IMG/VR virus record: IMGVR_UViG_2531839440_000003
Location: 1 to 41,145 of that record
Direction: 5' to 3' (one strand)
From: a virus
Taxonomy: Duplodnaviria; Heunggongvirae; Uroviricota; Caudoviricetes
Length of the DNA: 41,145 bases
Within the stretch, counting starts at the first letter, position 1; the number at the start of each line of letters is the position of its first letter. A model generated the notes under the pieces. The model was not told the DNA's origin. It did not search any database and worked only from the letters and a program-made list of their open reading frames with translations. This document shows, one piece after another, positions 3,859 to 12,762 of the stretch. Position numbers and translations under genes: made by a program.

Positions 3859-4062
3859 TTACGGTGCTGTTTTAAGTCCTGCCGGGATTTCGTTATTATC
3901 CATGTGAATAACTTTATCGACCGGATAGCAGTTACCGGGAATTTTTTGTTCTGCTGCGGCAGCCATGCATTCTTTCATTGAACCGTAAATGTCAATAACC
4001 ATGTCAACAGGCTCGCCAGTATTAAGAAAAACAGTCAGAGTGAGGGCAATAGCAGTATTCAT
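3859..4062 (-). CDS. Small protein with hydrophobic N-terminus (positional equivalent of Qin ydfD)
   Basis: 67 aa from ATG at 4062 (AAGGA RBS 8 nt upstream); start overlaps upstream stop as ATGA; hydrophobic N-terminal segment MNTAIALTLTVFL. Confidence 0.45.
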   Translation of the reverse strand: MNTAIALTLTVFLNTGEPVDMVIDIYGSMKECMAAAAEQKIPGNCYPVDKVIHMDNNEIPAGLKTAP

Positions 4063-4247
4063 TGCCAGTATCCTTTTTGCATCGGGCGTAAACGTGCCAG
4101 CATTGAAAGAATGCATATTTTATTTAATAGCTCCCGTTCGTGTTTTCTCTTATTAATGGCATCTTCAGTAAATACAGGGTTACTGATTCTGACACCAATT
4201 TCAAAACAACCTTCAGACGTATTGACGTTTGGTAATAACGTTTCCAT
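4059..4247 (-). CDS. dicB: Cell-division inhibitor DicB-like protein (62 aa)
   Basis: Internal ATG of ORF 4059..4343 with GAGGA RBS 7 nt upstream; product METLLPNVNTSEGCFEIGV...NKICILSMLARL matches my recollection of E. coli DicB in sequence and exact length; lies downstream of the dicF-like hairpin as in Qin. Confidence 0.6.
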   Translation of the reverse strand: METLLPNVNTSEGCFEIGVRISNPVFTEDAINKRKHERELLNKICILSMLARLRPMQKGYWQ

Positions 4248-4430
4248 TATCGCGTCCTCAACAATGAATTTTGTGATGCGGTGCCTGGTGCCTCCAGGTG
4301 ACGTTAACCAGTTAATAATTAACGCCGGATACAGAGAACCCACCCATAAGAACCAATACGGAAGTCAACTGGCCTTTTTAACTGTTCCGCGTGCGCTGAG
4401 CCGCATTCACCGCATCACAAAATTCACTTT

Positions 4431-4490
4431 AAAAGGGGCGGGTATCATGGGAAAAACAAAACGGATACCCGCCAAAAGGTAATCAACATG
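4431..4490 (-). ncRNA. dicF: DicF-like sRNA 3' domain with intrinsic terminator (boundaries approximate)
   Basis: Minus-strand 10-bp perfect stem GGCGGGUAUC/GAUACCCGCC (4437..4446 with 4464..4473), 17-nt loop, followed by CCUUUU; preceded by UUUGGCGGG, resembling the DicF 3' hairpin as I recall it; 5' region differs from K-12 DicF. Directly upstream of dicB-like ORF. Confidence 0.4.
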
Positions 4491-4813
4491 GGTTGTTGCA
4501 GCGGGGTTGTCACTCAGGCGTATGGTCAACCTGACAACCCGGTGGACATTTGCGAGGAACGGAGAACCCCCGCCATACTTACCGCCGCGCCATTTCGCGG
4601 AGTGCCACAACCGGAAGCGCACGGTCGACGAAAATTTAACGACAGGCTATCTATGAACCAGCAACCTCGCCGTGCGCTTTCGCGTTATGCTCTGACTTTT
4701 CAGAGAAATATCCTTTCAGTAAACTGTCAGTGCCGGATGCTCACCCGTGTCCGGCGCACACACTCCACCTCACCTGTGGAGAACTCCTTAATTACCAACC
4801 CTCAGGAGGGTGA

Positions 4814-5047
4814 ATGTTAAAATCAACGCTTATTGCTAAATGCCTTTATCAAAATCGCATGGTAAGCAGCATTTCAATAAGCGAATCTGCAGTTAAAAGT
4901 ATTTTCGAAGAGTACTTTCCCGGGCATGATTTTAATAAATGGAATACCAAATTACCGCCAGCAGTTTCAACGCGTATTCTGAAAGCAACTGAAAGAGCAA
5001 GTACAATTCGCGTTAACTATTTCATTAAAGATTTGTGGGATCTTTGA
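4814..5047 (+). CDS. Hypothetical protein, low-GC, opposite orientation to the early-left operon
   Basis: 77-aa ORF with GGAGGG RBS 5-6 nt upstream; AT-rich codon usage unlike flanking phage genes; 3' end overlaps the convergent gene by 23 bp. Confidence 0.4.
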   Translation: MLKSTLIAKCLYQNRMVSSISISESAVKSIFEEYFPGHDFNKWNTKLPPAVSTRILKATERASTIRVNYFIKDLWDL

Positions 5048-5432
5048 TATCCACAGAGCCTAAAGTATGTGCATATGGATGTGCTATTGTGCGCCCCTGT
5101 AAATTTGCATCGTTTTCTAAATCTTTTGATTTCAACAGAACATCAGCAAGACTCTGAATCATGCAGAGATAATCAAAAACAGTTGCCGTTTCTGTTCTGA
5201 TTGCTGAAATAACATGACCATTCAGGCAAACAGAAATTACCCGTTCATCAATATCGTTTTCCTGTTTTTGATTATCAGAACCATATAGCCCTGAAAAAGC
5301 ATTGCGCACATTACGAACCATATTATCGATGGTTTCTTTTTTGGTGTGTGCCGGGTCAATTTTCACCAGACTATCACCGAGTGTCGTTGCAGCAATTATC
5401 TGGATTTCTTTTGGTAAATCTTTAAATTCCAT
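5025..5432 (-). CDS. Hypothetical protein, low-GC moron
   Basis: 135-aa ORF, no transmembrane segment evident, AT-rich; no Qin counterpart at this position between the ydfC-like gene and dicF-like RNA. Confidence 0.5.
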   Translation of the reverse strand: MEFKDLPKEIQIIAATTLGDSLVKIDPAHTKKETIDNMVRNVRNAFSGLYGSDNQKQENDIDERVISVCLNGHVISAIRTETATVFDYLCMIQSLADVLLKSKDLENDANLQGRTIAHPYAHTLGSVDIKDPTNL

Positions 5433-5454
5433 TATTAGCCTCGTTGGTTAACCA

Positions 5455-5673
5455 TTAACGTGGGTATGTAATCATTCTGGCAATGCTTAATGCCGCTGCT
5501 TTTTCCAGATTGGTGATATCCTGCTCCAGAGCGGACAGATTTTCAGCCTGCTTAGCCCTGGCTTCATTGGCCCATTTCAGATCCTGCGCAGCCTTAATTT
5601 TCTGGTGCATCCACTCATAAAGTTCATCATCGGTATAGTCTGGCGCGATGATGACGGGTTCTCGTTTCTGCAT
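5455..5673 (-). CDS. Small coiled-coil protein (72 aa; positional/length match to Qin YdfC)
   Basis: ATG at 5673 with GAGGA RBS; the longer track ORF 5455..5706 is an upstream in-frame extension. Confidence 0.5.
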   Translation of the reverse strand: MQKREPVIIAPDYTDDELYEWMHQKIKAAQDLKWANEARAKQAENLSALEQDITNLEKAAALSIARMITYPR

Positions 5674-5702
5674 ACTGATTCCTCGCGGTGCTGCTTCGCT
5701 TA

Positions 5703-5831
5703 TCAACCGTTAGATTTTGCCGAACTGGAAAGCGCCTGTTTAAATTCGCTGAAGCTGAGGGCTTCTTCGCCTTCGGCAAGGCCTTCGAAGTATTCTTCGT
5801 AAGCCTTTTCCATGATTGTGTCGAAATCCAT
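5703..5831 (-). CDS. Small acidic protein (42 aa; positional/length match to Qin YdfB)
   Basis: Below the 60-aa ORF-track cutoff; found by hand: MDFDTIMEKAYEEYFEGLAEGEEALSFSEFKQALSSSAKSNG; ATG lies 1 nt after the upstream stop. Confidence 0.45.
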   Translation of the reverse strand: MDFDTIMEKAYEEYFEGLAEGEEALSFSEFKQALSSSAKSNG

Positions 5832-5832
5832 A

Positions 5833-5988
5833 TCACTCACCTGAGTTTCTTTCCAGCCAGCGACGGGCACCATTTTCGGTTTTAAACGTTTTGCTTTTGG
5901 TATACGTCATCGCGGTGAACGTGCCGTCCTGGTTGGGAAACACGCCGTACACCAGAGATTCGTTGTTACCAAGATCGATAGTATCCAT
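5833..5988 (-). CDS. Small protein (51 aa; positional/length match to Qin YdfA)
   Basis: Internal ATG at 5988 with GAGG RBS 5 nt upstream; first gene of the leftward early operon. Confidence 0.45.
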   Translation of the reverse strand: MDTIDLGNNESLVYGVFPNQDGTFTAMTYTKSKTFKTENGARRWLERNSGE

Positions 5989-6101
5989 GTTGACCTCATT
6001 TCCCCTTAACGCCGGGTAGCGGAACTGTTTGCTGAGAACACCGTGCGGTGTCTTGATGGGTGGTAATTTAGTTTTCTCATGAGTGTTGGTCAAGTGCTTT
6101 T

Positions 6102-6117
6102 AATGAGAAAACTCAAT
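6102..6117. promoter_or_regulatory. Left operator: palindrome AATGAGAAAACTCAAT
   Basis: Near-identical to the palindrome at 6635..6650 on the other side of the repressor gene; core TGAGAAAACTCA is a perfect inverted repeat. Confidence 0.5.
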
Positions 6118-6177
6118 ATTTAATGCAAAATAAAGCCAATACATTGAAATGTAAGGCTTTAAAATTTGTGAAGGGGA

Positions 6178-6585
6178 TTACTGATGTTTGTTACGTTTGC
6201 GAGCTTCTAGTAGCTCGGTGAATAGGCGATTAAAATTCTCAACGCGGGCACGGAGTTCGCTGATTTGTGCTTGCTGCTCTGATTTTGGAAGTGCGCGATA
6301 CAATCGCAACATCTCCAACTCATCTTCCGATAAGTCTAAGGCGCTGTTGAGTGCAACTGGTGGATCTGGTGTTTTATCCTCGTCACCAAACAGTATCCAA
6401 GTTGGTGAACATTGCAATACCTCAGCCAGGCGATGCAAATTTTGCCCACGCGGGGCTGTATGGTCGCTTTCCCATAGTGAAATTGATGAGCCAGATACGC
6501 CAGCGGCTTTGCTTAAATCGTTTTGACTTAAACCAACCTGTTTGCGTCTTTCTCTAATTCGTTGACCTAAAGTTTTCTCGTTCAT
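6178..6585 (-). CDS. dicA: DicA-like HTH (XRE-family) prophage repressor
   Basis: 135-aa ORF with N-terminal HTH (LSQNDLSKAAGVSGSSISLWE) and the segment LQCSPTWILFGDEDK, which I recall from E. coli DicA; divergent from the Cro-like gene. Confidence 0.75.
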   Translation of the reverse strand: MNEKTLGQRIRERRKQVGLSQNDLSKAAGVSGSSISLWESDHTAPRGQNLHRLAEVLQCSPTWILFGDEDKTPDPPVALNSALDLSEDELEMLRLYRALPKSEQQAQISELRARVENFNRLFTELLEARKRNKHQ

Positions 6586-6662
6586 ATTTAGATATCTTAA
6601 TAACCCTTGACTTGAGATTCCTTGAGTGATTACTATTGAGAAAACTCAATTTTGGAGGGGTG
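6586..6662. promoter_or_regulatory. Divergent immunity promoter/operator region
   Basis: TTGACT -35-like hexamer near 6607, repeated CTTGAG half-sites, operator palindrome ATTGAGAAAACTCAAT at 6635..6650, then GGAGGGG RBS of the Cro-like gene. Confidence 0.5.
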
Positions 6663-6890
6663 ATGTTTAAATCAGACGTAATTAATTTTTATGGGACGAA
6701 AGCCAAAGTAGCGAAAGCTGCTGGTGTTGATCCATCTGCTGTTTCTCAATGGGGGGAACTGGTTCCTGAAGGTCGCGCGATGCGCCTGCAAGAGGCATCC
6801 GACGGGGAACTTCAGTACGACCCCAAAGTTTATGACGAATATCGTAAGGCAAAGCGGGCGGGGCGGTTGAACAATGAAAATCACCCCTGA
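6663..6890 (+). CDS. dicC: DicC/Cro-like small regulator
   Basis: 75 aa from ATG at 6663; segment VPEGRAMRLQEASDGELQYDPKVY matches what I recall of DicC; divergent from repressor. Confidence 0.6.
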   Translation: MFKSDVINFYGTKAKVAKAAGVDPSAVSQWGELVPEGRAMRLQEASDGELQYDPKVYDEYRKAKRAGRLNNENHP

Positions 6891-7395
6891 ACAGGTTTGT
6901 GAGGCTCTGGATGCCTGGGTATGTCGACCAGGAATGACACAGGAGCAGGCGACGATATTAATCACGGAAGCATTCTGGGCTCTGAAAGAACGCCCGAACA
7001 TCGATGTTCAACGCGTCACGTTTAATGATGGCGAGGTTGATCAACGGGCGCTGGGCGTTAACCGGGTGAAGATATTCGAACGCTGGAAAGCTATCGACAC
7101 CAGGGATAAGCGGAAAAAATTCACGGCGCTGATTCCGGCAATTATGGAGGCTATCCGGATTAATGATTTCAGGTTGTATCGTGAAATTACTGACGGAAAA
7201 AGCATTACGTACATGATCGCCGGGTTAAATAAAGAATATGGCGATGTGGTGGAATCCGGACTGCTTTTTGCAGATCCAGCTGTAGTGGATCGTGAAACTG
7301 ACGAACTTATAGAAAAAGCAATTGCTTTCAAGCTTGCGTATCGACAGCAATACCAACAAAAAGCTGGATGGAATTATGAGTCTTCTTTTTGCTGA
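6874..7395 (+). CDS. Hypothetical early regulatory protein (possibly YdaT/CII-like)
   Basis: 173-aa ORF between cro-like and replication genes; family assignment tentative. Confidence 0.4.
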   Translation: MKITPEQVCEALDAWVCRPGMTQEQATILITEAFWALKERPNIDVQRVTFNDGEVDQRALGVNRVKIFERWKAIDTRDKRKKFTALIPAIMEAIRINDFRLYREITDGKSITYMIAGLNKEYGDVVESGLLFADPAVVDRETDELIEKAIAFKLAYRQQYQQKAGWNYESSFC

Positions 7396-8341
7396 ACGCC
7401 CACTGGTTATAAACACGCAGCTGGCAATGAAAATTGGCTTAAACGAAGCCATTGTTTTGCAACAACTGCACTACTGGTTGAGAGATACCAACTCCGGCAT
7501 GGAATGTGATGGTGTTCGCTGGATTTATAACACAACGGAACAATGGCTGGAACAGTTCCCGTTCTGGTCAGAGTCAACGTTAAAGCGCGCGTTTGCAAGT
7601 CTGAAAACGCTGGGGCTTTTGCGTTGTGAAAAGCTCAATAAATCAAAGCGCGATATGACCAATTTCTACACGATCAACTACGGGAACGAGCTTTTAGATG
7701 GTGGCAAAGTGAGCGAATCCATCGGTTCAAAATGCGCCGCTCCATCAGGTCAAAATGACACGATGGAAGAGATCAAAATGAAACGCTCCATTGGTTCAAA
7801 ACGACTCAATGTCATCGGGTCAAAATGGCCTGATGATCTTACAGAGAATACAACAGAGATTACTACAGAGAATAAAAACACTTCTCGTCCGGAAGCTTCG
7901 CAACCGGACCCGCAGACGGTTGAACAGGATTTTTTAACCCGACACCCTGACGCGGTTGTGTTCAGTGCAAAAAAACGCCAGTGGGGCAACCAGGAAGATT
8001 TGGCGTGTGCGCAGTGGATCTGGGGACGAATCGTGAGTCTTTACGAGCAGGCCGCCAGCGATGATGGCGAGATTTCGCGACCGAAAGAACCCAACTGGAC
8101 CGCATGGGCCAACGACGTGCGCACAATGCGGATGCTGGATGGCAGAACTCACAGACAAATTTGTGAAATGTTTGGTCGGGTGCAGCGGGATCCATTCTGG
8201 GTAAAAAATATCATGAGTCCGTCAAAGCTTCGCGAAAAATGGGATGAACTGGTTATCCGCCTGGGGCGTTCGTCTGTACAGCGTTGTGTGAATCATATTT
8301 CTGAGCCGGATACCGAAATTCCGCCGGGGTTCAGGGGGTAA
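7376..8341 (+). CDS. Replication initiation protein (iteron-binding, O-like/DnaD-like)
   Basis: ATG at 7376; located upstream of DnaC-like loader; gene body contains iterons 7718..7827. Confidence 0.7.
   Translation: MSLLFAERPLVINTQLAMKIGLNEAIVLQQLHYWLRDTNSGMECDGVRWIYNTTEQWLEQFPFWSESTLKRAFASLKTLGLLRCEKLNKSKRDMTNFYTINYGNELLDGGKVSESIGSKCAAPSGQNDTMEEIKMKRSIGSKRLNVIGSKWPDDLTENTTEITTENKNTSRPEASQPDPQTVEQDFLTRHPDAVVFSAKKRQWGNQEDLACAQWIWGRIVSLYEQAASDDGEISRPKEPNWTAWANDVRTMRMLDGRTHRQICEMFGRVQRDPFWVKNIMSPSKLREKWDELVIRLGRSSVQRCVNHISEPDTEIPPGFRG
7718..7880 (+). repeat. Replication origin: five 17-bp iterons at 23-bp spacing followed by A/T-rich ACAGAGAAT repeats
   Basis: Iterons TCCATCGGTTCAAAATG (7718), TCCATCAGGTCAAAATG (7741), degenerate GAAGAGATCAAAATG (7766), TCCATTGGTTCAAAACG (7787), GTCATCGGGTCAAAATG (7811); then ACAGAGAATA copies at 7841..7877. 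Confidence 0.6.
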
Positions 8342-8347
8342 CGGGCC

Positions 8348-9094
8348 ATGAAAAATATCGCGACAGGTGGTGTTCTTGAGCGTATCCGTAAGCTGACCCC
8401 GCAGCATGTAATCGCGCCGTACCGGACAGTGGACGAGTGGCGCGAGTGGCAACTGGCAGAAGGGCGAAAACGTAGCGAGGAGATCAACCGCCAGAATCGC
8501 CAGTTGCGGGTGGAAAAAATCCTGAATCGTTCGGGCATCCAGCCTCTGCACAGCAAATGCTCGTTTGCGAATTATCAGGTGCAGAACGACGGGCAAAAAC
8601 ACGCGCTGAGCCAGGCAAAATCTATCGCTGACGAACTGATGACCGGGTGCACGAATTTTGTGTTCAGCGGTAAGCCGGGTACCGGAAAGAACCACCTTGC
8701 AGCCGCCATTGGCAATCATCTTCTGGCGAAAGGTCGCAGCGTGATTGTGATAACGGTGGCTGATGTGATGCTGGCGTTACACAACAGCTACGACAACAAA
8801 AACTCAGGCGAAAAATTTTTACAGGGGTTGTGTGATGTTGACCTGCTTGTCCTGGATGAAATCGGAATGCAGCGGGATACGCGCAACGAGCAGGTCACAC
8901 TGAACCAGATAGTCGACCGCAGAACGGCTTCGATGCGTAGTGTCGGAATGCTGACGAACCTGAACCACGTAGCGATGAGTACGCTTCTTGGCGAGCGTGT
9001 GATGGACCGCATGGTCATGAACGGTGGTCGCTGGGTGAATTTTAACTGGGAGAGCTGGCGTTCGAATGTCAGACACCTGAGGGTTGTGAAGTAA
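8348..9094 (+). CDS. DnaC-like replicative helicase loader (IstB-type AAA+ ATPase)
   Basis: Walker A FSGKPGTGKNHLAAAIG, Walker B DLLVLDEIG; follows initiator gene. Confidence 0.85.
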   Translation: MKNIATGGVLERIRKLTPQHVIAPYRTVDEWREWQLAEGRKRSEEINRQNRQLRVEKILNRSGIQPLHSKCSFANYQVQNDGQKHALSQAKSIADELMTGCTNFVFSGKPGTGKNHLAAAIGNHLLAKGRSVIVITVADVMLALHNSYDNKNSGEKFLQGLCDVDLLVLDEIGMQRDTRNEQVTLNQIVDRRTASMRSVGMLTNLNHVAMSTLLGERVMDRMVMNGGRWVNFNWESWRSNVRHLRVVK

Positions 9095-11867: not shown

Positions 11868-12126
11868 ATACAGCGAACGCCATTGGTTTAGTTGGATATT
11901 TACTGTGCCGGACAAAAACGGTTTGCGGGGAAATCTTAGTTAAGTAGAATAACTGCGGGTGCTTGAGGCTATCTGTCTCAGGCATGAACACCAAAAGGCA
12001 GATAGAGAAAAGCCCCAGTTAACATTACGCGTCCTGCAAGACGCTTAACATTAATCTGAGGCCCAATCTATGTCTCACAAATGTAGGTTAGCCTCTTACG
12101 TGCCGAAAGGCAAGGAGAAGCAGGCT

Positions 12127-12282
12127 ATGAAGCAGCAAAAGGCGATGTTAATCGCCCTGATCGTCATCTGTTTAACCGTCATAGTGACGGCACTGGTAAC
12201 GAGGAAAGACCTCTGCGAGGTACGAATCCGAACCGGCCAGATGGAGGTTGCTGTTTTCGTAGACTACGAATCTAGAGAGTAA
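12127..12282 (+). CDS. hok: Hok/Gef-family type I toxin
   Basis: 51 aa MKQQKAMLIALIVICLTVIVTALVTRKDLCEVRIRTGQMEVAVFVDYESRE, closely resembling Hok (..[34 protein letters not shown].AYES); AAGGAG RBS; in-frame upstream extension from 12070. Confidence 0.8.
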   Translation: MKQQKAMLIALIVICLTVIVTALVTRKDLCEVRIRTGQMEVAVFVDYESRE

Positions 12283-12498: not shown

Positions 12499-12762
12499 AT
12501 GATGAACATCGAAGAACTGCGTAAAATTTTTTGTGAAGATGGCCTCTATGCTGTGTGCGTTGAAAATGGAAATATTGTTAGTCATTGCCGCGTTCTGTGT
12601 TTGCGAAAGAAGCAAAGAAAGAGTGGGGCTGCGTTAATTAATTTTGTGGATGCTCGGGTGACGGACGGATTTATCTTGCGCGACGATGAGTTTGCCACTT
12701 CATTACAGGCATTGAAAGAGATCGGAATAAAAGCTGGCTTTTCTGCTTTTTCAGAAGAATAA
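12499..12762 (+). CDS. Hypothetical protein (positionally Rem-like)
   Basis: 87-aa ORF next to hok as in Qin (rem-hokD); identity not verified. Confidence 0.4.
   Translation: MMNIEELRKIFCEDGLYAVCVENGNIVSHCRVLCLRKKQRKSGAALINFVDARVTDGFILRDDEFATSLQALKEIGIKAGFSAFSEE

What the first reader, a model, noticed from the sequence alone, without database searches (positions are those of the whole stretch)
6096..6662. Repressor gene flanked by two copies of a 16-bp operator palindrome
AATGAGAAAACTCAAT (6102..6117) and ATTGAGAAAACTCAAT (6635..6650) lie on either side of the DicA-like repressor gene, one at the leftward early promoter and one in the divergent promoter facing the DicC-like gene. This is the expected left/right operator pair of an immunity region and defines the likely repressor binding site.
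Basis: seen in the sequence. Interest (0 to 1): 0.4.

Follow-up and report, generated by a model that had tools for sequence, protein, structure and literature searches.

The report
Operator sites of DicA-type prophage repressor
The two repeated 16-base sequences are real, and they are two of five likely binding sites through which an E. coli prophage's DicA-like repressor and its Cro-like partner control the promoters on both sides of the repressor gene; this is an ordinary phage immunity switch, in a variant whose sites I did not find described in the searched open-access literature.

Summary
AATGAGAAAACTCAAT lies at 6102-6117 and ATTGAGAAAACTCAAT at 6635-6650, flanking a 135-aa DicA-subfamily repressor gene (6178-6585, minus strand).

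An arms-only scan (TTGAG-N4-CTCAA) finds five sites, all in the 224 bp of the two intergenic regions, where about 0.1 is expected by chance:
- **Left side:** OL1 (6067-6080) over the -10 of the leftward promoter, and OL2 (6103-6116) upstream of its -35.
- **Right side:** Oa (6587-6600), Om (6612-6625) and Oc (6636-6649), spaced 25 and 24 bp. Oc lies over the -10/+1 of the promoter of the DicC-like cro gene.

Across 88 loci with near-identical repressors, the site cores are 10-25 times less variable than the DNA next to them. Across diverged DicA homologues the layout is kept, while the half-site changes with the recognition helix.

All five sites lie in a ~700-bp cassette (about 6060-6760) that differs from K-12 Qin. 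In K-12 the site equivalent to Oc binds DicA in vivo, and DicC ChIP-seq peaks on both sides of dicA.

Verdict: these are the operators of a known switch type (Qin DicA/DicC, with a P22 C2-like DNA-binding domain) in a different immunity specificity. It is a new member of a known kind, of low to moderate interest. Binding itself is untested.

The parts
6066..6081 (.). OL1: degenerate operator copy (plus strand ATTTAGTTTTCTCATG; core 6067-6080). It overlaps the -10 and spacer of the leftward promoter, at about -15 from the inferred start site.
   Evidence: 3 mismatches, minus strand; 2 arm mismatches; I3 (15-nt inverted repeat with OL2). Core minor-allele fraction is 0.006, against 0.12-0.17 for the adjacent DNA, in 49 variants.
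6102..6117 (.). It lies 9 bp upstream of the -35 of the leftward promoter, at about -51, and 36 bp centre-to-centre from OL1.
   Evidence: Core minor-allele fraction 0.017. The same position is occupied by an allele-specific palindrome in K-12 and in other DicA homologues.
6065..6093 (-). Leftward early promoter, analogous to PL / dicBp: -35 TTGACC (6093-6088), 17-bp spacer, -10 TAAATT (6070-6065). It drives the ydfA-ydfB-ydfC...dicB operon.
   Evidence: Consensus scan. The -35 and a TAAnnT -10 formed by the outer half of OL1 recur in diverged homologues. The start site itself is inferred.
5833..5988 (-). ydfA-like gene (DUF1391, 51 aa), the first gene of the repressed leftward operon.
   Evidence: Pfam PF07151, E 1.7e-28; annotation of near-identical E. 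coli loci.
6125..6161 (-). Terminator-like hairpin plus U-run just after the repressor stop codon. It separates the repressor transcript from OL and the leftward promoter.
   Evidence: -12.3 kcal/mol, z -3.1, followed by UUUAUUUUG. The simple terminator scan missed it because the stem is low in GC.
6178..6585 (-). Immunity repressor, 135 aa, DicA subfamily. The N-terminal HTH domain (residues 1-72) is homologous to the P22 C2 DNA-binding domain. There is no peptidase S24 (self-cleavage) domain.
   Evidence: PDB 1adr/2r1j/3jxb, E 2e-15; 56% identity to K-12 DicA.
6586..6601 (.). Oa: palindromic weaker site ATTTAGATATCTTAAT (core 6587-6600), 0-2 nt from the repressor start codon. It overlaps a TAAGAT -10-like hexamer on the minus strand, so it is analogous to OR3.
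   Evidence: I12. It is the most conserved segment of the intergenic region (minor-allele fraction 0.003; identical in Buttiauxella, whose repressor is 75% identical). The role as a promoter for the repressor gene is inferred.
6611..6626 (.). Om: candidate middle site CTTGAGATTCCTTGAG (core 6612-6625). It has one good half-site, sits 25 bp from Oa and 24 bp from Oc, and abuts the -35 of the rightward promoter.
   Evidence: 2 arm mismatches; moderately conserved. This is the weakest of the five. K-12 Om did not bind DicA on its own (PMC3441716).
6607..6636 (+). Rightward promoter, analogous to PR / dicCp: -35 TTGACT (6607-6612), 18-bp spacer, -10 TACTAT (6631-6636).
   Evidence: In relatives the -10 varies only at positions 3-4 (TAnnAT is kept). 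The layout matches the K-12 dicC promoter, whose start site was mapped by 5'RACE (PMC3441716).
6635..6650 (.). It overlaps the last 2 bp of the -10 and the inferred +1 of the rightward promoter, so it is analogous to OR1 and to K-12 Oc.
   Evidence: 0 mismatches. Minor-allele fraction 0.011-0.013, against 0.09-0.16 for the flanking bases.
6663..6890 (+). Cro-like regulator (DicC subfamily, P22_Cro family, 75 aa). Only its N-terminal HTH part differs from K-12 DicC.
   Evidence: (69% identity, with the divergence confined to the first ~30 aa).
6060..6760 (.). Heteroimmune cassette: the OL sites, the repressor, the OR sites and the HTH-coding part of cro. Identity to K-12 Qin and to a third immunity type drops from at least 0.97 to 0.2-0.7 here, with sharp edges.
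   Evidence: 30-nt identity profile against L001 and L008.
12499..12759 (+). Rem-like putative antirepressor, the likely trans-acting inducer that removes the non-cleavable repressor from the operators.
   Evidence: tblastn, 85% amino-acid identity to K-12 Rem. Rem derepresses dicBp 165-fold in K-12 (PMC10448788). Its function in this prophage is inferred.

Best explanation
The repeats are operators of a Qin-type (DicA/DicC) lambdoid immunity switch carried on an E. coli prophage, in an immunity specificity different from K-12.

**Recognition.** A dimer of the 135-aa repressor, through its P22 C2-like helix-turn-helix domain, is proposed to recognise an 18-bp frame with contacted arms TTGAG/CTCAA and a non-contacted 4-bp centre. 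The three best sites have an AAAA centre.

**Right side.** Three sites are spaced 25 and 24 bp.
- Oc covers the -10/+1 of the promoter of the cro-like gene. Like K-12 Oc, it is the primary site that shuts off rightward transcription, and it probably stimulates the repressor's own weak promoter.
- Om is a weak helper site.
- Oa covers the -10-like hexamer next to the repressor's start codon. Occupancy there, by excess repressor or by the Cro-like protein, would turn the repressor gene down.

**Left side.** OL1 covers the -10 and OL2 lies just upstream of the -35 of the promoter of the ydfABC-dicB operon. The two sites bracket the -35 and keep the cell-division inhibitor operon and the recombination, excision and integration genes silent.

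**Induction.** The repressor has no self-cleavage domain, so induction is expected through the Rem-like antirepressor encoded at 12499-12759, or through the DicA/DicC-type bistable flip.

**Shown:** sequence, positions, conservation, co-variation, homology.
**Inferred:** binding, start sites, the affinity order of the sites, autoregulation and the induction route.
For: 1. Five TTGAG-N4-CTCAA-like sites lie in the 224 bp flanking the repressor gene, against about 0.1 expected. The exact and 1-mismatch 16-mers are confirmed.
2. The sites overlap predicted core promoter elements on both sides.
3. Phylogenetic footprint: in 88 loci with a repressor at least 96% identical, or 75% in one case (50 unique left and 25 unique right intergenic sequences), site cores have a minor-allele fraction of 0.003-0.017. 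The DNA between OL1 and OL2 and next to Oc has 0.09-0.17.
4. Buttiauxella, whose repressor is 75% identical, keeps all the sites while the spacer DNA is rewritten.
5. Co-variation: the 85 loci whose recognition helix ends ...ISLWES all have at least 2 such sites upstream and at least 1 downstream. The 13 loci with ...SQWE or ...FKWE helices have 0 upstream and 0-1 downstream. Those loci carry different palindromes (TTAG-N6-CTAA, TAAC-N4-GTTA, CTTAAC-N4-GTTAAG) at the same positions.
6. All the sites lie in the swapped cassette at about 6060-6760.
7. Family membership: DicA and DicC NCBIfam models are passed, and the N-terminal domain aligns without gaps to the P22 C2 domain solved on its operator (E 2e-15).
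8. P22 repressor contacts positions 2-7 and 12-17 of an 18-bp site and prefers an A-tract centre (KD 4.3 nM against 14-58 nM) (PMC4267663).
9. Experimental precedent in K-12: single base changes in Oc abolish DicA binding in vivo; Oc overlaps the dicC -10; DicA at Oc activates dicA (PMC3441716). [quoted passage not shown] DicA represses dicBp and Rem relieves the repression (PMC10448788).
Against: - There are no binding or transcription data for this allele. The promoters and start sites are consensus predictions only.
- In K-12 the two weaker sites (Om, Oa) did not bind DicA when tested alone. Oa and Om here may therefore be sites for the Cro-like protein only, may need cooperativity, or (Om especially) may be conserved simply because they overlap promoter elements.
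- The aligned variants are related prophages, not independent samples, so the conservation contrast is descriptive rather than a p-value.
- The 36-bp spacing of OL1 and OL2 is about 3.4 helical turns. That does not suit simple same-face cooperativity, so the role of OL2 is unclear.
- The central AAAA could be conserved for reasons other than indirect readout.
Confidence: 0.85

Rival explanations
1. The sites are operators mainly for the Cro-like (DicC-subfamily) protein rather than the repressor, at least for the weaker sites Oa and Om. The repressor would use only Oc and perhaps OL1.
For: K-12 DicC ChIP-seq peaks on both sides of dicA with a palindromic TT(A/C/T)G...C(G/A/T)AA motif (PMC11430063). 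K-12 DicA did not bind Om or Oa alone (PMC3441716). The N-terminal HTH of the Cro-like protein is swapped together with the sites.
Against: This does not exclude the main explanation. In lambda, P22 and K-12 Qin, both proteins share the operators. The half-site co-varies with the repressor's recognition helix, K-12 Oc does bind DicA, and DicA represses dicBp.
Confidence: 0.08
2. The inverted 15-nt match between 6066-6080 and 6103-6117 acts as an RNA or DNA hairpin (for example a second terminator or a processing site for read-through from the repressor gene), not as protein-binding sites.
For: I3: 15-nt arms, 93% complementary, with a 22-nt loop, lying just downstream of the terminator-like hairpin.
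Against: The extended complementarity exists only because the two sites carry the A-tract centre in opposite orientation. In K-12 and type-C loci the two left sites share arms but not centres, so no such hairpin forms there, although the layout is conserved. The loop holds the conserved -35, the stem is not followed by a U-run, and the idea does not explain the three right-hand sites.
Confidence: 0.03
3. The repeats are sites for a host protein (for example YjdC, Fis or IHF), or leftovers of recombination at module junctions, with no allele-specific regulator.
For: YjdC is reported to regulate DicA targets when DicA is absent, and Fis and Hfq are reported to influence the dicBF operon (papers cited in PMC11430063 and PMC10448788). 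The sites are AT-rich with an A-tract. OL1 sits at the left edge of the mosaic cassette.
Against: A host-factor site should not change with the phage's immunity allele, yet the half-sites switch with the repressor and Cro HTH. Four of the five sites lie well inside the cassette, not at its junctions. Conserved palindromic arms at fixed promoter positions are not what recombination scars look like.
Confidence: 0.03

Closest known systems
DicA/DicC immunity locus of the E. coli K-12 Qin cryptic prophage (operators Oc, Om, Oa and the dicBp operators)
   Same: - Gene order is the same: dicB...ydfC-ydfB-ydfA, then repressor, then the divergent cro-like gene and a ydaT/ydfX-like gene.
- The repressor is 135 aa, lacks a cleavage domain and is 56% identical. 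The Cro-like protein is 69% identical. A Rem homologue is present (85% identical).
- The right-hand sites sit at the same places: next to the repressor ATG, in the middle, and over the cro -10. The outer two are 49-50 bp apart.
- Two left-hand sites bracket a conserved TTGACC -35, 35-36 bp apart.

   Different: - The operator sequence differs: K-12 has TGTTAG-N6-CTAACA and this window has TTGAG-N4-CTCAA in the same 18-bp frame.
- The recognition helix differs: SHVSVSQWER in K-12 against SGSSISLWES here.
- The whole stretch at about 6060-6760 is only 20-70% identical, so the two should be heteroimmune.
- K-12 Qin is cryptic, whereas phages of this immunity type (mEp460_ev081, HannyBb) are deposited as complete phage genomes.
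- The DicF sRNA sequence has diverged here.
Phage P22 c2 repressor / Cro with the OR and OL operators
   Same: - The N-terminal domain aligns with P22 C2 residues 1-72 without gaps (E 2e-15). The partner protein belongs to the P22_Cro Pfam family.
- The operator geometry is the same as that shown for P22: an 18-bp frame, contacted arms, and a 4-bp non-contacted centre where an A-tract gives the tightest binding (PMC4267663).
- From my memory of the P22 consensus (ATTTAAG-N4-CTTAAAT), the arms differ essentially at one position: TTAAG in P22 against TTGAG here. One half of Oa (CTTAA) matches the P22 arm.
   Different: - The C-terminal half is a ~60-aa domain with no Pfam hit, not the S24 peptidase-like domain, so RecA-stimulated cleavage is not expected.
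- Helix residues that are N32, V33, Q37 and N46 in P22 are G32, S33, L37 and R46 here (alignment).
- Only two sites were found on the left side.
- The P22 consensus and its contact residues come from memory (Watkins et al. 2008) and were not verified here.
Phage lambda cI/Cro switch (OR1-3, OL1-3, PR, PRM, PL)
   Same: It works the same way: a repressor gene lies between a leftward and a rightward early promoter. A tripartite right operator with ~24-bp spacing overlaps the divergent promoters. The repressor start codon has no Shine-Dalgarno sequence and a -10-like hexamer lies 8 nt upstream, which suggests a leaderless mRNA like lambda cI from PRM (inference).
   Different: There is no sequence homology of repressor or operators beyond the generic HTH fold, and no S24 domain. 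Only two left sites were found, spaced 36 bp around the -35, rather than three adjacent ones. Induction is by antirepressor.
Gifsy/Fels prophage repressors (GfoR, GfhR) with LexA-controlled antirepressors
   Same: A short, non-cleavable repressor is removed from its operators by a small antirepressor. Rem was found in K-12 by homology searches seeded with these antirepressors (PMC10448788).
   Different: The signal that induces Rem is unknown. I did not get a LexA-box result for this window (see the section on what was tried). The repressor families were not compared here.

Membership tests
DicA/DicC (Qin-type) immunity module | Repressor belongs to the DicA subfamily: about 135 aa, with an N-terminal Cro/C1 HTH and the conserved C-terminal ...TWILFGDED...RARVENFN... 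part. | tested here: met
   NCBIfam NF007257, 238 bits against a cut-off of 101, full length 1-135/135; 56% identity to K-12 DicA.
DicA/DicC (Qin-type) immunity module | A divergently transcribed DicC-subfamily (P22_Cro) regulator. | tested here: met
   NF007282, 164 bits against a cut-off of 130; Pfam PF14549, E 6e-18; 69% identity to DicC.
DicA/DicC (Qin-type) immunity module | The repressor gene is followed, on the same strand, by the dicB operon (ydfA-ydfB-ydfC...dicB) behind its own promoter. | tested here: met
   ydfA (DUF1391) at 5833-5988; dicB at 4062-4247; annotation of near-identical loci; promoter-like site at 6093-6065.
DicA/DicC (Qin-type) immunity module | Same operator sequence as K-12 (Oc TTGTTAGTTATGACTAACAA), which would mean the same immunity. 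| tested here: not met
   The sites here are TTGAG-N4-CTCAA. Loci with K-12-type helices have none of these sites upstream and 0-1 downstream. The cassette is 20-70% identical. This is therefore the same family with a different specificity.
DicA/DicC (Qin-type) immunity module | The repressor binds the operators and represses the dicC-type and dicB-type promoters. | not testable with these tools
   Shown only for K-12 (PMC3441716 and PMC10448788). Here it is inferred from position, conservation and co-variation.
DicA/DicC (Qin-type) immunity module | A Rem antirepressor is encoded on the same prophage. | tested here: met
   tblastn hit at 12499-12759, 85% identity to K-12 Rem. Its function was not tested.
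Lambdoid immunity region (lambda/P22/434 type) | Several imperfectly palindromic operator copies lie on both sides of the repressor gene and overlap the divergent PR/PRM promoters and PL. | tested here: met
   Five sites overlap the predicted promoters. The right-hand sites are spaced 25 and 24 bp.
Lambdoid immunity region (lambda/P22/434 type) | The repressor has a C-terminal S24/LexA-like domain that RecA can stimulate to self-cleave. | tested here: not met
   Pfam finds only HTH families in residues 1-72 and nothing in 73-135. The protein is 135 aa, against 216 aa for P22 C2 (PMC10448788).
P22 C2-type operator recognition | The DNA-binding domain is homologous to the P22 C2 N-terminal domain. 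| tested here: met
   phmmer against the PDB: 1adr, 2r1j and 3jxb, E 2e-15 to 3e-14, residues 1-72 without gaps.
P22 C2-type operator recognition | An 18-bp two-fold site with contacted arms (positions 2-7 and 12-17) and a 4-bp A/T-rich non-contacted centre. | tested here: met
   All five sites fit arms + N4. The centres are AAAA (three sites), ATAT and ATTC. The geometry is taken from PMC4267663. Whether the centre really goes uncontacted here cannot be tested.
P22 C2-type operator recognition | P22 operator consensus and P22 immunity. | tested here: inconclusive
   The arms here are TTGAG. The P22 consensus (TTAAG) is recalled from memory and was not retrieved. The recognition-helix residues differ, so a different specificity is expected.

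The most novel reading that the evidence does not exclude
The DicA family forms a natural series of specificity swaps on a fixed scaffold. The promoter and operator layout is the same in every member: three right-hand sites, and two left-hand sites 35-36 bp apart bracketing the -35. A few recognition-helix residues (positions 32, 33 and 37 in P22 numbering: G-S-L here, H-V-Q in K-12) appear to retarget positions 5-7 of an 18-bp operator.

If so, the family would give a readable recognition code for P22-type HTH domains and a set of orthogonal compact repressors. The conserved out-of-phase bracket around the -35 would imply a repression mechanism at the dicB-type promoter that differs from the adjacent-site cooperativity of lambda and P22. 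It would also locate the DicA site at K-12 dicBp, which a 2020 survey listed as unknown (PMC7567609).
Probability: 0.25. Interest if true: 0.45.

Novelty: new member of a known kind. Interest (0 to 1): 0.25.

Why it matters
This immunity type is common. 796 of 5426 complete E. coli genomes carry at least 80% of this 1.1-kb region, and so do the deposited phage genomes mEp460_ev081 and HannyBb.

Knowing its operators has three uses:
- It predicts which prophages are homoimmune, and so which superinfections and cross-regulation between co-resident prophages to expect.
- It shows where the toxic dicB cell-division operon is held off.
- It gives exact targets for footprinting and reporter experiments.

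The comparison also suggests where DicA acts at dicBp in K-12: two sites bracketing the -35. A recent survey called that location unknown.

Beyond that, this is a textbook switch. Nothing here challenges current understanding.

Tried and rejected
- **Whole-16-mer matching.** At up to 3 mismatches it found only three sites. An arms-only scan was needed to see Oa and Om. That scan is not enriched window-wide (17 hits against 19 expected), so the 12 hits outside the immunity region are treated as chance.
- **Fourth GAGAAAACT copy.** The 9-mer at 6571-6579 lies in repressor codons 3-5. I rejected it as a site: it has 4 arm mismatches, sits 19 bp from Oa (off the 24-25 bp register), and is lost in Buttiauxella (MNEM...).
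- **Half-site in cro.** TTTCTCAAT at 6742-6750 is a half-site without a partner arm.
- **RNA hairpin from OL1/OL2.** Considered and rejected because it is not conserved in other immunity types.
- **Rfam.** There is no DicF or any other family hit in 4000-6700 apart from a sub-threshold STnc100 match.
- **Literature.** The 14-mer TTGAGAAAACTCAA is in none of the searched open-access papers. Béjar et al. 1988, the original description of the operators, is not in the library.
- **Automatic site placement by palindrome score.** It shifted some sites by 1-3 bp and crashed on the short intergenic regions of L023-L026. For those loci I rely on the raw sequences.
- **LexA-box search.** The script that included the CTGT-N8-ACAG search printed no match lines, but its sequence look-up for rem had failed. 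I draw no conclusion about LexA control.
- **Assumed collinearity with strain 504237.** This was wrong: the window matches L002 only from about 4800 to 8800. rem and dicB were therefore located by tblastn instead.
- **Not attempted.** Structure prediction of the C-terminal domain, a whole-host-genome scan for the motif, and the large protein database searches. None was needed for the verdict.
Full report
**What is in the sequence**

The repeat extends to 20 nt at 90% identity.

- Allowing 3 mismatches gives three matches in the 41-kb window against 0.53 expected.
- Each 'palindrome' has 6-nt arms around a non-symmetric AAAA centre.
- Scanning only the arms (TTGAG-N4-CTCAA, up to 2 arm mismatches) gives 17 hits window-wide, no more than the 19 expected. 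But five of them sit in the 224 bp of the two intergenic regions flanking one gene, where about 0.1 is expected.

The five sites are:

| Site | Core coordinates | Sequence |
|---|---|---|
| OL1 | 6067-6080 | TTTAGTTTTCTCAT |
| OL2 | 6103-6116 | ATGAGAAAACTCAA |
| Oa | 6587-6600 | TTTAGATATCTTAA |
| Om | 6612-6625 | TTGAGATTCCTTGA |
| Oc | 6636-6649 | TTGAGAAAACTCAA |

Centre-to-centre distances are 36 bp on the left, and 25 and 24 bp on the right.

**Genes and source**

The window is an E. coli lambdoid prophage. The 1.1 kb around the finding is 100% identical to strain 504237. It is about 91% identical to phage HannyBb and 90% to phage mEp460_ev081, and 796 of 5426 complete E. coli genomes carry at least 80% of it.

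- The gene between the repeats (6178-6585, minus strand, 135 aa) passes the NCBIfam DicA model (238 bits against a cut-off of 101). It is 56% identical to K-12 DicA.
- Its first 72 residues align without gaps to the P22 C2 DNA-binding domain that was solved on its operator (E 2e-15). Pfam finds no domain in residues 73-135, so there is no LexA-like cleavage domain.
- The divergent gene (6663-6890) passes the DicC model and the P22_Cro Pfam family.
- To the left, on the repressor's strand, lie ydfA (5833-5988), ydfB, ydfC and dicB (4062-4247).
- A homologue of the Qin antirepressor Rem lies at 12499-12759, 85% identical at the protein level.

**Positions relative to promoters**

The consensus scan finds exactly two sigma-70-like promoters in 5800-6900:
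- Rightward: TTGACT (6607-6612), 18-bp spacer, TACTAT (6631-6636).
- Leftward: TTGACC (6093-6088), 17-bp spacer, TAAATT (6070-6065).

Relative to these:
- Oc overlaps the end of the rightward -10 and the inferred start site.
- Om abuts the rightward -35.
- Oa touches the repressor's start codon.
- OL1 overlaps the leftward -10.

The half-site of OL1 that departs from the consensus (TTTAG instead of TTGAG) is the half that also forms the -10 TAAATT. This dual role explains the 'degeneracy'.

The repressor's start codon has no Shine-Dalgarno sequence, and a TAAGAT hexamer inside Oa lies 8 nt upstream of it. A TAnnAT hexamer at that distance recurs in the other immunity types. This suggests a leaderless repressor mRNA, as for lambda cI; that is an inference. 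A terminator-like hairpin (6131-6161, -12.3 kcal/mol, z -3.1) follows the repressor gene.

**Comparative evidence**

1. *Close relatives.* In 88 loci with a near-identical repressor (50 unique left and 25 unique right intergenic sequences), the minor-allele fractions are:
   - site cores: Oa 0.003, OL1 0.006, Oc 0.011-0.013, OL2 0.017;
   - the 22 bp between OL1 and OL2: 0.17;
   - the 7 bp before OL1: 0.12;
   - the bases flanking Oc: 0.09-0.16.

   Position 16 of Oc takes all four bases, so the constrained core is 14-15 bp. These variants are related to each other, so the contrast is descriptive.
2. *A more distant relative.* Buttiauxella, whose repressor is 75% identical, keeps the arms and A-tract centres of OL1, OL2 and Oc and an identical Oa (Om is only partly kept), while the DNA between them is rewritten.
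3. *Diverged homologues.* DicA homologues at 45-67% identity (Citrobacter, Enterobacter, Rahnella, Symbiopectobacterium, other Escherichia species) keep the layout. The palindrome changes with the recognition helix:
   - helices ending ISLWES go with CTCAA arms;
   - [SA]HV[ST][VI]SQWE goes with TTAG-N6-CTAA (including K-12);
   - SSVSVFKWE goes with TAAC-N4-GTTA;
   - SHVTIFKWE goes with CTTAAC-N4-GTTAAG.

   Counted mechanically, the 85 ISLWES loci all have at least 2 TTGAG/CTCAA-type sites upstream and at least 1 downstream. The 13 other loci have 0 upstream and 0-1 downstream.
4. *The cassette.* Identity to K-12 Qin and to a third immunity type falls from at least 0.97 to 0.2-0.7 between about 6060 and 6760, with sharp edges. 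That cassette holds all five sites, the repressor and only the HTH-coding start of cro. This is the classical signature of an exchangeable immunity region.

**Experimental precedent in K-12**

- Oc (TTGTTAGTTATGACTAACAA) occupies the place of Oc here. Single-base changes in it abolish DicA binding in vivo, it overlaps the -10 of the dicC promoter (start site mapped by 5'RACE), and DicA bound there activates dicA. Om and Oa did not bind DicA when tested alone (PMC3441716).
- DicA represses dicBp, and Rem derepresses it 165-fold. The switch also flips spontaneously in a DicC-dependent way. mEp460_ev081 is noted there as a functional phage with homologues of dicA/dicC, dicB, dicF and rem (PMC10448788).
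- A 2020 survey still listed the location of the DicA site at dicB as unknown (PMC7567609). Reading K-12 DNA next to this window places two candidate sites at L001 1768-1785 and 1803-1820. They bracket the same TTGACC -35 and lie 35 bp apart (my own reading).

**Mechanism proposed**

A repressor dimer reads the arms through a P22 C2-like HTH. The 4-bp centre is probably not contacted, and its A-tract probably raises affinity, as shown for P22 repressor (KD 4.3 nM for an A-tract centre against 14 and 58 nM for others; PMC4267663).

- On that reasoning Oc, OL2 and OL1 (AAAA centres) would be the strong sites, and Oa (ATAT) and Om (ATTC) the weak ones.
- Oc, with or without Om, blocks the cro-side promoter. 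OL1 and OL2 block the dicB-operon promoter. Oa would shut off the repressor gene, when occupied by the Cro-like protein or by excess repressor.
- Release would come through the Rem-like antirepressor or a bistable flip, not through RecA cleavage.

Binding, start sites, affinity order and autoregulation are all inferred.

**Rivals**

- *Cro-only sites.* This is compatible with, rather than opposed to, the main model.
- *An OL1/OL2 RNA hairpin.* It is not conserved in the other immunity types.
- *A host-factor site or a recombination scar.* Neither fits the allele-specific co-variation.

**Verdict**

This is a new specificity member of the known DicA/DicC (Qin-type, P22-like) immunity switch. 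The 14-mer appears in none of the searched papers. Interest is low to moderate.

Noticed in passing
window 4248-4800, especially about 4425-4478 (minus strand): The region between ydfC and dicB is 85.7% identical to the K-12 dicF region, but the DicF sRNA itself has diverged. The 5' seed TTTCTGGTGACGTTTGGCGG is replaced and shortened, and the terminator stem is different. Rfam gives no DicF hit even at E<=1; there is only a sub-threshold STnc100 match at 4270-4424 (33.5 bits against a gathering score of 47). This may be a DicF variant with different targets, or a dead copy.
   Followed up: partly
window 12499-12759 (+): A Rem-like putative antirepressor, 85% amino-acid identity to K-12 Rem. 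No Pfam or NCBIfam family covers it. What induces Rem is unknown, even in K-12.
   Followed up: partly
window 6082-6102, and the same stretch in loci L029-L108: The 22 bp between OL1 and OL2 are by far the most variable stretch of the whole region among otherwise near-identical prophages (minor-allele fraction 0.17), even though they contain the -35. This could reflect tuning of promoter strength or relaxed constraint. It is unexplained.
   Followed up: partly
window 6125-6161 (minus strand): An AU-rich hairpin followed by UUUAUUUUG lies directly after the repressor stop codon (-12.3 kcal/mol, z -3.1). It is a likely terminator that insulates the leftward promoter from repressor read-through. 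The simple terminator scan did not list it.
   Followed up: yes
window 6571-6579 and 6742-6750: There are extra partial copies of the operator core inside coding sequence: GAGAAAACT in repressor codons 3-5, and ATTGAGAAA (reverse strand) in the cro codons for ...VSQW. Both lack a partner arm or the right spacing and are probably coincidental.
   Followed up: yes
window 11957-12132 and 16844-17090 (+): An Rfam sok antitoxin RNA (120 bits), indicating a hok/sok-type module, and a cluster of three tRNA genes, as is common in lambdoid prophages upstream of the late region.
   Followed up: no
window about 4800-8800, compared with L002 (strain 504237): The best-matching genome is collinear with the window only over about 4 kb around the immunity region. 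60-mers sampled every 1 kb outside that stretch are absent from the window, so the prophage is a mosaic and the window comes from a different strain or prophage.
   Followed up: partly
L009 (MAG labelled Bacillota), L010 (MAG labelled Veillonella parvula), L014 (MAG labelled Collinsella): Metagenome-assembled genomes labelled as Gram-positive or Negativicutes taxa carry DicA-type repressors: L009 and L010 are 96% identical to this window's repressor, and L014 is a K-12-type DicA differing from it at one residue. These are almost certainly mis-binned E. coli prophage contigs.
   Followed up: no
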